In this document: piece by piece, positions 36,483 to 36,579 of the stretch
Layout of the letters: each line of letters starts with the position of its first letter
How positions within the stretch are numbered: position 1 is the first letter of the stretch
The notes under the pieces: model-generated
What the model saw: only the letters and a program-made list of their open reading frames with translations
What the model was told of the DNA's origin: nothing
Database searches by the model: none
IMG/VR virus record: IMGVR_UViG_3300012909_000001
Coordinates: 33,689-97,688 of that record
Length of the DNA stretch: 64,000 bases
DNA from: a virus
Taxonomy: Duplodnaviria; Heunggongvirae; Uroviricota; Caudoviricetes
Direction: 5' to 3' (one strand)
Translations under genes and position numbers: made by a program

Positions 36483-36579
36483 AAAGCCATTACATTGCTA
36501 ATCTCCATTACAAGACGTTGTAAGTAAGGCTTCATTACGCGGAGTAATGAGATATTGGTATGGAATCCAATATGGCTTT
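36483..36579 (+). ncRNA. Structured RNA candidate, 97 nt: 8 bp terminal stem AAAGCCAT/ATGGCTTT enclosing a 10 bp helix with a bulged C (ATCTC(C)ATTAC/GTAATGAGAT) and a T-arm-like hairpin ATTGG-TATGGAAT-CCAAT. It may be a Y-RNA-like or tRNA-mimic RNA
   Basis: All helices are seen directly. The element sits between tRNA-Glu and tRNA-Ala and has no cloverleaf. Confidence 0.35.

What the first reader, a model, noticed from the sequence alone, without database searches (positions are those of the whole stretch)
36483..36579. Second structured RNA candidate between tRNA-Glu and tRNA-Ala: nested helices with a bulged C and a T-arm-like hairpin
Three helices are visible: an 8 bp terminal stem (AAAGCCAT/ATGGCTTT), a 10 bp internal helix with a single bulged C (ATCTC(C)ATTAC/GTAATGAGAT), and a hairpin ATTGG-TATGGAAT-CCAAT. 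They occupy a 97 nt gap in the tRNA array with no cloverleaf. A helix with a bulged cytidine closed by the 5' and 3' ends is the hallmark of the Ro60-binding module of Y RNAs.
Basis: partly seen in the sequence, partly recalled or inferred. Interest (0 to 1): 0.6.

Follow-up and report, generated by a model that had tools for sequence, protein, structure and literature searches.

The report
tRNA-like spacer RNA in phage array
The 97-base gap between two phage tRNA genes encodes a folded, partly tRNA-shaped small RNA that recurs in a few other phages; it is not a recognisable Y RNA, although this phage carries a Ro60 gene and real Y-RNA-like genes nearby.

Summary
All three helices are present at the stated coordinates. 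The 8-bp terminal stem is non-random (18 of 20,000 shuffles) and the fold is moderately better than shuffles (z -2.4).

The element is not a singleton. Elements with the same layout fill inter-tRNA gaps in at least three other phage contigs (L200, L261, L206; weakly L132). The layout is: closing stem, YUAAUMUYC, variable middle, GARAU, a 5-bp hairpin with loop UAUGRAAU, then the closing stem. Compensatory changes support the closing stem and the T-arm-like hairpin.

Only the lower half of the "bulged-C" helix is shared, as conserved sequence. The bulged C and the upper half are not conserved. That helix is internal, not closed by the RNA ends.

No Rfam family matches, including Y_RNA, YrlA and tRNA. 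The Ro60-contact motifs (GNCGAA, CGAA, GGUCCGA) are absent.

The phage encodes a Ro60 homologue (28996-30693), a YrlA-like RNA (37546-37666) and four copies of a separate, widespread, Ro60-adjacent scaffold RNA family.

Best reading: a tRNA-mimic small RNA cut out of the tRNA precursor. Its partner is unknown, and a link to Ro60 is possible but unproven.

The parts
36406..36481 (+). tRNA-Glu(UUC). Its 3' processing would define the 5' end of the element.
   Evidence: ARAGORN; Rfam tRNA 50.8 bits.
36483..36490 (+). P1 5' strand AAAGCCAT (acceptor-like closing stem).
   Evidence: Perfect 8-bp inverted repeat. 18 of 20,000 shuffles match it. Pair probability 0.84-0.97 for the six outer pairs and 0.41-0.55 for the two inner ones. 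Across four family members 31 of 32 cells pair, and 5 of 8 positions show two or more pair types. RNAalifold predicts it independently.
36498..36506 (+). Conserved motif CTAATCTCC (family consensus YUAAUMUYC). C36506 is the 'bulged C'.
   Evidence: The same motif sits at the same place in L200 (TTAATATTC), L206 (CTAATATTC) and L261 (CTAATTTCC). P2 is 83% paired with no double changes.
36507..36548 (+). Variable middle, 42 nt here and 20-35 nt in relatives. It contains hairpin TTACAA-GACG-TTGTAA (36508-36523) and hairpin TCATTAC-GCGGA-GTAATGA (36532-36550).
   Evidence: It is not alignable between family members.
36549..36553 (+). GAGAT (family consensus GARAU), the 3' strand of P2. It directly abuts the T-arm-like hairpin.
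   Evidence: Conserved in L200 (GAGAT), L261 (GAGAT), L206 (GAAAT) and L132 (GAAAT).
36554..36571 (+). T-arm-like hairpin ATTGG-TATGGAAT-CCAAT. The 8-nt loop has family consensus UAUGRAAU, closed by two G-C pairs. It abuts the P1 3' strand as a tRNA T arm abuts the acceptor stem.
   Evidence: 100% paired, with 3 of 5 pairs changed on both sides in four members. RNAalifold agrees. The stem sequence matches the T arm of the YrlA-like element at 34055. The loop lacks the canonical TTCRA.
36572..36579 (+). P1 3' strand ATGGCTTT.
   Evidence: As for the P1 5' strand.
36580..36584 (+). 5-nt spacer GAAAA before tRNA-Ala. It would be the 3' tail left by RNase P cleavage. Relatives have ATTTG (L200) and TATTT (L261) at the same place.
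   Evidence: RNase P cleavage is inferred, not shown.
36585..36658 (+). tRNA-Ala(UGC). Maturation of its 5' end would define the 3' end of the element.
   Evidence: ARAGORN; Rfam tRNA 40.6 bits.

Best explanation
The element belongs to a small RNA family that is not in Rfam. I call it family C. Its members are 78-97 nt long and fill inter-tRNA gaps in phage tRNA arrays.

Fold:
- It folds as a three-way junction.
- An 8-bp closing stem (P1) is continuous on its 3' strand with a 5-bp T-arm-like hairpin. Together they give a 13-bp stack that imitates the acceptor/T-arm minihelix of a tRNA.
- The D arm and anticodon arm are replaced by a weak helix (P2: AUNUYC / GARAU) that carries a variable insert.

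Biogenesis (inferred):
- It is transcribed with the tRNAs on the + strand.
- The enzymes that mature its neighbours cut it out. 3' processing of tRNA-Glu makes its 5' end. RNase P cleavage at tRNA-Ala +1 leaves a 5-nt tail. The closed stem then protects it from exonucleases.

Function (inferred): it cannot decode. The loop UAUGRAAU and the YUAAUMUYC/GARAU segments stay constant while the stems co-vary, which suggests a recognition surface. It most likely acts in trans as a tRNA mimic, a decoy or tether for a tRNA- or Y-RNA-binding protein, within this phage's RNA-handling set (Ro60, tmRNA-like RNA, Y-like RNAs).

What is shown: the helices, their covariation, the family, the position flush between tRNAs, and the failed membership tests. 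What is inferred: transcription, processing, stability and partner.
For: - The helices are present and non-random.
- A single-sequence covariance model of the finding hits L200 2764-2841 (22 bits, E 0.02 in 0.69 Mb).
- A model built from window plus L200 finds L261 2128-2206, which was not used to build it, at 39.1 bits and E 2.4e-6. It also finds L132 (26.7 bits) and L206 (21.4 bits). L206 was found independently by a motif-plus-pairing scan.
- The members share the ordered motifs YUAAUMUYC, GARAU and GG-UAUGRAAU-CC.
- P1 pairs in 31 of 32 cells, 5 of 8 positions have two or more pair types, and the true strand assignment is the best of 24 permutations.
- The T-like hairpin is 100% paired, with 3 of 5 pairs changed on both sides.
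- RNAalifold on an unguided alignment predicts exactly P1 plus the hairpin, with 7 compensated pairs.
- In L200 and L261 the element occupies the whole gap between two tRNAs on the tRNA strand. In the window it starts 2 nt after tRNA-Glu and ends 5 nt before tRNA-Ala.
- There is no promoter or terminator inside it and no credible ORF.
- Ro60 homologue, YrlA-like RNA and tmRNA-like RNA lie in the same region.
Against: - Only four or five members were found, so covariation rests on few sequences. On the window/L200 pair alone, 26 of 500 shuffles do as well.
- L206 and L132 score marginally.
- P2 has no compensatory change, has non-canonical positions in half the members, and is not in any single-sequence MFE fold of the relatives.
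- The three closest relatives of this phage (71-78% protein identity) do not have this element in the Glu-Ala slot.
- No family-C element lies within 3 kb of the Ro60 gene in 79 Ro60-encoding phage loci.
- There are no expression data.
- A purely cis role, as a folding insulator or processing spacer, would explain the closing stem equally well.
Confidence: 0.5

Rival explanations
1. It is a Y RNA: the phage Ro60 binds the bulged helix ATCTC(C)ATTAC/GTAATGAGAT, and the rest of the RNA is an effector module.
For: - A Ro60 homologue is encoded 5.8 kb upstream on the same strand.
- YrlA-like and Ro60-linked scaffold RNAs lie in the same array.
- In the nearest relatives the Glu-Ala slot holds one of those scaffold RNAs.
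- Bacterial Y RNAs are diverse tRNA mimics, and a second Y RNA with only a T arm is known (PMC4201824).
- The lower half of the helix is conserved in sequence across family C.
Against: - No Y_RNA or YrlA hit at E<=10.
- No GGUCCGA, GNCGAA or CGAA motif.
- The helix is not the terminal one.
- The bulged C and the upper half are not conserved.
- Its pair probability is 0.06-0.40.
- The covariance model of the Ro60-linked scaffold family gives no hit.
- No family-C element was found beside the Ro60 gene in 79 loci.
Confidence: 0.12
2. It is a cis-acting structured spacer only. It folds on itself so that tRNA-Glu and tRNA-Ala fold and are processed independently, and it is discarded afterwards.
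For: - Closing stems flush with tRNA boundaries are common in this array. Besides the finding they occur in four scaffold elements, the Met-Val gap (11 bp) and the Ile-Gly gap.
- The slot upstream of tRNA-Ala holds unrelated closed structures in relatives.
- The tRNA partners differ between family-C members.
Against: An insulator needs only a stem. It does not explain the invariant 8-nt loop UAUGRAAU, the GARAU and YUAAUMUYC motifs, or the exact T-arm/acceptor geometry kept across distant phages.
Confidence: 0.23
3. It is a decaying tRNA, or a remnant of a tRNA-like element, with no function. The helices are inherited leftovers.
For: - At very low stringency ARAGORN draws a poor 'tRNA-Pro(CGG)' over 36514-36580, using the same hairpins.
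- The 3' two-thirds has tRNA-like spacing.
- All 20 amino acids are already served by the other tRNAs of the array.
Against: - There is no significant sequence similarity to any tRNA of this or related arrays; scores fall within the shuffle range.
- The same non-tRNA features (8-nt loop, motifs, no D arm) recur in other phages with compensated stems. That indicates selection rather than decay.
Confidence: 0.1
4. It is a chance set of inverted repeats in an A+T-rich spacer.
For: - The genome is 33% G+C.
- Short matches are common. An exact 20-mer of the hairpin also occurs inside a Vibrio coding sequence.
Against: The terminal stem occurs by chance at p about 0.0009, the fold has z = -2.4, and independent homologues show covariation.
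Confidence: 0.05

Closest known systems
YrlA / bacterial and phage Y RNAs (Rfam RF02553; Chen et al. 2014, PMC4201824; phiLo Yrl1/Yrl2, PMC12135203)
   Same: - Roughly 80-130 nt.
- The 5' and 3' ends pair.
- It contains a tRNA-like module with a T-arm-like hairpin.
- It is encoded on the same strand as, and a few kb from, a Ro60 homologue.
- The middle is variable.
   Different: - No covariance-model match.
- No GNCGAA/CGAA motif.
- The tRNA-like part has normal topology, with the acceptor formed by the RNA ends. YrlA instead has the permuted order T arm, acceptor hairpin, D arm.
- There is no D arm, and the T loop is non-canonical and 8 nt long.
- It is not found adjacent to Ro60 genes.
tRNA (Rfam RF00005)
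   Same: - The closing stem is directly continuous with a 5-bp hairpin (8+5 bp against 7+5 bp in tRNA).
- A U follows a 7-bp acceptor register.
- It lies in a tRNA array and is flanked like a tRNA.
- A 5-nt leader separates it from the next tRNA.
   Different: - No hit with Rfam tRNA or ARAGORN.
- No D arm, no 7-nt anticodon loop with U33, and no T54-Psi55-C56.
- There are 0 nt between P2 and the T-like hairpin.
- The middle region is variable in length (20-42 nt).
Phage T4 small stable RNAs C and D (species 1 and 2) of the T4 tRNA gene cluster. This comparison rests on my own knowledge and was not checked here.
   Same: Non-tRNA small RNAs encoded among phage tRNA genes, co-transcribed and processed with them, partly tRNA-like, and of unknown function.
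   Different: No sequence similarity to any GenBank phage was detected. The T4 RNAs are longer. No structural comparison was possible with these tools.
The Ro60-linked scaffold RNA family of the same array
   Same: - It sits in inter-tRNA gaps with a closing stem flush with the tRNAs.
- The layout is stem, junction, stem, with a variable insert.
- It occupies the Glu-Ala slot in the nearest relatives.
   Different: It has different conserved motifs (UAGUAA, UUACUUCG, AAUUUCU), all absent from the finding. Its covariance model does not hit the finding. Family B is adjacent to Ro60 genes and family C is not.

Membership tests
Y RNA / YrlA (RF00019, RF02553) | Match to the family covariance model at or near the gathering score. 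| tested here: not met
   Focused cmscan of 36470-36595 against all 4227 Rfam families at E<=10 gives no Y_RNA or YrlA hit. The same search does detect YrlA-like RNAs elsewhere in the array.
Y RNA / YrlA | Ro60-contact motif in the 5' strand: GGUCCGA in animals, GNCGAAN0-1G in bacteria, CGAA in phiLo Yrl. | tested here: not met
   Regular-expression search of 36482-36584 finds none of them. Motif definitions come from PMC4201824 and PMC12135203.
Y RNA / YrlA | The Ro60-binding bulged helix is formed by the 5' and 3' ends of the RNA. | tested here: not met
   The terminal helix is a perfect 8-bp stem without a bulge. The bulged-C helix is internal and has low pair probability.
Y RNA / YrlA | Encoded near a Ro60 gene on the same strand (within 4 kb in Chen et al. 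2014). | tested here: inconclusive
   The Ro60 homologue at 28996-30693 is on the same strand but 5.8 kb away. No family-C element lies within 3 kb of Ro60 in 79 other phage loci.
Y RNA / YrlA | tRNA-like module with canonical T and D arms. | tested here: not met
   Only a T-arm-like hairpin is present, with an 8-nt loop UAUGGAAU that lacks TTCRA. There is no D arm.
Y RNA / YrlA | Physically bound and stabilised by Ro60. | not testable with these tools
   Needs immunoprecipitation or EMSA.
tRNA (RF00005) | Cloverleaf detected by ARAGORN or the Rfam tRNA model, with U33, a 7-nt anticodon loop, the T-loop TTCRA and D-loop GG. | tested here: not met
   No call at default settings. Only a poor 'tRNA-Pro(CGG)' appears at 60% stringency, with a mismatched acceptor stem. 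TTCRA is absent.
   R1 with filters off gives no hit on 36483-36579 at E<=10, while it scores 76-79 bits on the two short true members of this window and 45-88 bits on other members. The motifs are absent.
   CTAATCTCC at 36498-36506 and GAGAT at 36549-36553. The same motifs occur in L200, L206 and L261.
   Window: between Glu and Ala. L200: between Ser and Met. L261: between Phe and Asn.

The most novel reading that the evidence does not exclude
Family C is a second, non-permuted type of phage Y RNA. It would be a tRNA-topology mimic cut out by RNase P and RNase Z like a tRNA. Its conserved P2 helix, with a purine-purine mismatch or bulged C at the junction, together with the UAUGRAAU loop, would be bound by the phage Ro60. 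The acceptor/T minihelix would recruit a tRNA-handling enzyme or an exonuclease. On this reading the phage tRNA array doubles as an operon of several Ro60 co-factor RNAs (YrlA-like, family B, family C).
Probability: 0.12. Interest if true: 0.7.

Novelty: new variant of a known kind. Interest (0 to 1): 0.5.

Why it matters
Phage tRNA arrays are usually annotated as tRNAs plus meaningless spacers. In this array many spacers are conserved, co-varying RNAs. One spacer family is tightly linked to phage Ro60 genes, and the finding belongs to a second, rarer family with a tRNA acceptor/T-arm mimic.

If these RNAs accumulate, they are candidates for how phages that carry Ro60, a tmRNA-like RNA and large tRNA sets manipulate host RNA quality control, or tRNA-directed defence and repair. 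They would also enlarge the short list of natural tRNA mimics.

For the finding alone the value is moderate. It gives a defined, testable small-RNA family of unknown function.

Tried and rejected
- **GenBank phages.** Megablast of 35800-38400 and blastn of the element gave no match.
- **Exact 29-mer of the 5' part in IMG/VR.** No match.
- **Homology with the Glu-Ala gap elements of the closest relatives.** L001 and L112 carry family B there instead. The 179-nt Ile-Ala element of L126 has a 14-bp closing stem but no significant similarity (48 of 1000 shuffles do as well).
- **Pseudo-tRNA origin.** Local alignments to all tRNAs of ten arrays score within the shuffle range.
- **Weak Rfam 'skipping-rope' hit.** 15.4 bits against a gathering score of 36.7. 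Judged to be chance.
- **Exact 20-mer ATATTGGTATGGAATCCAAT in 596 Gb of genomes.** One hit, inside a Vibrio breoganii coding sequence, so chance. The hairpin match alone is therefore weak evidence for L132. L132 was kept only as a weak member on the strength of model R3.
- **Two CRISPR spacers of L110 with 13- and 14-nt matches to the finding.** Neither matches over its full length. Treated as probable coincidence.
- **IMG/VR scan for GARATNNNGGTATGRAATCC.** 32 stretches were returned. Four are family C and most of the rest are one repeated, apparently coding sequence shared by many contigs.
- **Small-ORF reading of the AUG in the hairpin loop.** The peptides are not conserved; in L206 the frame is only three codons, MKS-stop (sequence). 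Rejected.
- **Antisense ORF 36317-36685.** No Pfam hit, and it overlaps both tRNAs. Rejected.
- **Internal promoter or terminator.** None found.
- **MAFFT alignment of full-length members.** It misaligned the 5' motifs. I therefore used alignments with the variable middle trimmed for model R3 and for the P2 and hairpin counts, and an explicit strand table for P1.

Full report
**1. The observation**

The finding lies in the 103-nt gap (36482-36584) between tRNA-Glu (36406-36481) and tRNA-Ala (36585-36658). Both belong to a 24-gene tRNA array, all on the + strand, at 32971-38289.

- AAAGCCAT/ATGGCTTT (36483-90 / 36572-79).
- ATCTC(C)ATTAC/GTAATGAGAT (36501-11 / 36544-53).
- ATTGG-TATGGAAT-CCAAT (36554-71).

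Neither ARAGORN nor the Rfam tRNA model calls a tRNA here.

The structure is more than chance:
- A perfect 8-bp stem this close to both ends of the gap appears in 18 of 20,000 dinucleotide shuffles.
- The MFE is -25.5 kcal/mol, z = -2.4.
- The opposite strand folds about as well (z = -3.0). Strand is therefore assigned from context: every tRNA is on +.

Two corrections are needed.
- The bulged-C helix is internal. The helix closed by the RNA ends has no bulge.
- GTAATGA has three possible CATTAC partners. The local hairpin TCATTAC-GCGGA-GTAATGA is preferred, with pair probability about 0.6.

**2. Known-family tests**

A focused Infernal scan of the gap against all Rfam families at E<=10 returned nothing for Y_RNA, YrlA or tRNA. 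The best hit was 'skipping-rope' at 15.4 bits against a gathering score of 36.7.

The motifs that Ro60 proteins contact are all absent. These are GGUCCGA in animals, GNCGAAN0-1G in bacteria (PMC4201824) and CGAA in Thermus phage phiLo Yrl RNAs (PMC12135203). The canonical T-loop TTCRA is absent too.

There is no significant similarity to any tRNA of this or nine related arrays. There is no DNA match in GenBank phages.

**3.

Upstream on the same strand, 28996-30693 encodes a 565-aa Ro60/TROVE homologue.
- Pfam vWA_Ro60 scores 33.7 bits against a cut-off of 27.7; TROVE scores 22.9 against 23.
- The best solved relatives are phiLo phiRo60 (9KOP/9L5Y, E 5e-7) and Xenopus Ro60 (1YVP, E 3e-4).
- It is conserved at 71-73% identity in the nearest relatives L001 and L112.
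- 258 IMG/VR stretches encode relatives of it.

Between this gene and the array lies a tmRNA-like RNA (32476-32901; 34.5 bits, E 3e-12, below gathering).

Inside the array Rfam finds a YrlA-like RNA at 37546-37666 (42.3 bits, E 5e-7). It has the T arm, acceptor hairpin and D arm typical of YrlA. It is conserved downstream of the DUF7873 gene in relatives.

**4. A separate, Ro60-linked RNA family in the same array (family B)**

Several gaps contain a repeated scaffold: closing stem P1, UAGUAA, 8-bp P2, UUACUUCG, variable insert, P2', AAUUUCU, P1'.
- Six short copies align with 96% pairing, and 10 of 15 pairs change on both sides (0 of 500 shuffles reach this).
- The window has four copies: 33051-33178, 33478-33560, 34019-34161 and 34508-34582. 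The third encloses the weaker YrlA hit.
Model R1 found 67 members in the 80 loci searched (95.6% paired, all 14 pairs co-varying).
- 24 of those 80 loci contain a Ro60 homologue. It often lies within a few hundred bases on the same strand, and sometimes family-B RNAs flank it on both sides.

This adjacency is the criterion Chen et al. used to call Y RNAs. Family B is therefore the likely Ro60 partner family of these phages.

In the nearest relatives (L001, L112) the Glu-Ala slot is occupied by a family-B member. The finding is not one. R1 with filters off gives no hit and the motifs are absent. Positional orthologues of the other family-B copies are well conserved between the window and L001. 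Divergence alone therefore cannot explain the difference.

**5. The finding is not a singleton (family C)**

- A single-sequence covariance model of the finding (R2) found nothing in about 855 kb of related loci. It did hit L200 2764-2841 (22 bits, E 0.02). That is a 78-nt element filling the gap between tRNA-Ser and tRNA-Met of a 180-kb viral contig.
- A motif-plus-pairing scan independently found L206 7676-7766.
- A model built from window plus L200 (R3) found L261 2128-2206 at 39.1 bits, E 2.4e-6. That element fills a tRNA-Phe/tRNA-Asn gap. R3 also found L132 1339-1407 (26.7 bits) and L206 (21.4 bits).
- An IMG/VR-wide scan for GARATNNNGGTATGRAATCC returned only these four true members. Most of the other stretches are one repeated, apparently coding sequence. 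As defined here, the family is rare.
- No Rfam family matches the L261 copy either.

All members share this order: 8-bp P1; 3-7 nt; YUAAUMUYC; a variable middle of 20-42 nt; GARAU; a 5-bp stem; loop UAUGRAAU closed by two G-C pairs; P1'. In the members flush with a downstream tRNA (window, L200, L261) about 5 A/U-rich nt then precede that tRNA. In L206 about 110 nt do.

**6. Which helices the comparison supports**

- **P1.** 31 of 32 cells pair. Five of eight positions show two or more pair types. The true strand assignment is the best of 24 permutations.
- **T-like hairpin.** 100% paired, with three of five pairs changed on both sides.
- **Independent prediction.** RNAalifold on an unguided alignment of the four full-length elements predicts exactly these two helices, with seven compensated pairs.
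It is conserved as sequence and 83% paired. It has no compensatory change and has non-canonical positions in half the members. It is absent from the relatives' single-sequence MFE folds.
- **The upper half (AUUAC/GUAAU) and the bulged C.** These are specific to the window. The equivalent C pairs with G in L200 and L206.

The sample is small. On the window/L200 pair alone the shuffle control is passed by 26 of 500 shuffles.

**7. Interpretation**

The supported anatomy is a three-way junction. P1 and the hairpin are contiguous on the 3' strand, as a tRNA acceptor stem and T arm are (8+5 bp against 7+5 bp). The D and anticodon arms are replaced by a weak helix carrying a variable insert.

From established tRNA biology I infer, but have not shown, the following:
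- Co-transcription with the array.
- A 5' end made by 3' maturation of tRNA-Glu.
- A 3' end made by RNase P cleavage at tRNA-Ala +1, leaving the 5-nt tail.
- Protection from exonucleases by the closed stem.

The loop and junction sequences stay constant while the stems co-vary. This argues for a specific ligand, so a trans-acting tRNA-mimic role is somewhat more likely than a purely cis spacer role.

The Ro60 hypothesis remains open but unsupported for this element. It fails every sequence and structure criterion tested. Unlike family B, it was not found next to Ro60 genes in 79 loci.

**8. Verdict**

The element is a member of a small, uncatalogued family of tRNA-like spacer RNAs. I rate it a new variant of a known kind (tRNA mimics and small stable RNAs in phage tRNA clusters) and of moderate interest.

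Noticed in passing
window 28996-30693 (+): A 565-aa Ro60/TROVE homologue. Pfam vWA_Ro60 is above its cut-off. The best PDB relatives are Thermus phage phiLo phiRo60 (9KOP/9L5Y) and Xenopus Ro60 (1YVP). It is conserved at 71-73% identity in L001 and L112, and 258 IMG/VR stretches encode relatives.
   Followed up: yes
window 33051-33178, 33478-33560, 34019-34161, 34508-34582 (+); also L001, L112, L132 and 67 members in L134-L213: A multi-copy 'scaffold' RNA family not in Rfam: closing stem, UAGUAA, 8-bp helix, UUACUUCG, variable and often tRNA-like insert, helix, AAUUUCU, stem. 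Covariation is very strong. The family is widespread in IMG/VR and frequently lies directly beside Ro60 genes on the same strand. It is probably the real Y-RNA-like partner family of these phages, and possibly more important than the assigned finding.
   Followed up: partly
window 37546-37666 (+): A YrlA-like RNA (Rfam RF02553, 42.3 bits, E 5e-7, below the gathering score of 69) with a T arm, acceptor hairpin and D arm. It is conserved downstream of the DUF7873 gene in L129, L001 and L006.
   Followed up: partly
window 32476-32901 (+): A phage tmRNA-like RNA at the head of the array (34.5 bits, E 3e-12, below the gathering score of 47). The reading frame in this region ends ...LLVAA. The counterpart in L112 passes gathering at 59 bits. 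ARAGORN does not call it.
   Followed up: partly
window 37721-37797 (+): A tRNA with anticodon CUA, an amber suppressor that ARAGORN labels 'Pyl'. It hints at stop-codon recoding in this phage.
   Followed up: no
window 33072-33144 (+), inside 33051-33178: ARAGORN's 'tRNA-Leu(UAG)' lacks the long variable arm of bacterial tRNA-Leu. It is enclosed by the family-B scaffold, whose UUACUUC motif forms the 5' strand of its acceptor stem. Similar enclosed tRNA-like genes occur in L112 (1913-2043) and L001 (3069-3183). They may be scaffolded tRNA mimics rather than decoders.
   Followed up: partly
window 33941-34013 (+): A partial tRNA-like element (Rfam tRNA positions 9-63, 25 bits) carrying only a family-B 5' half (TAGTTA...GTTACTTCGG). 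It lies in tandem just upstream of the complete family-B/YrlA-like element and shares its P2 sequence, which suggests a tandem duplication.
   Followed up: no
window 33640-33711 and 35988-36076 (+): Two other spacers are closed by terminal stems flush with the tRNAs. The Met-Val gap has an 11-bp perfect stem AAATAGTATAA/TTATACTATTT. Neither belongs to family B or C.
   Followed up: no
L110 8507-10780: A viral contig distantly related through DUF7873 carries a CRISPR array of at least 28 repeats of 36 nt (GTTGTAGGAAGCTTAATTTTGAAAGGAAGTCACAAC). Two spacers share 13- and 14-nt exact matches with adjacent parts of the finding (36559-71 and 36570-83). This is probably coincidence.
   Followed up: partly
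L288 5248-5303 and L139 4233-4288: Near-identical 56-nt elements made of a closing stem (ACCCCG/CGGGGU) plus a T-arm-like hairpin (GUGG-UUAGAAU-CCAC). In L288 the element lies about 640 nt downstream of the Ro60 gene. They score only marginally with R3 (20-23 bits) and may be minimal acceptor/T minihelix RNAs.
   Followed up: no
window 36676-37446 (+): The conserved phage protein DUF7873 (PF25283) lies immediately after tRNA-Ala, inside the array. It has 475 homologues with E<=0.001, and its function is unknown.
   Followed up: partly
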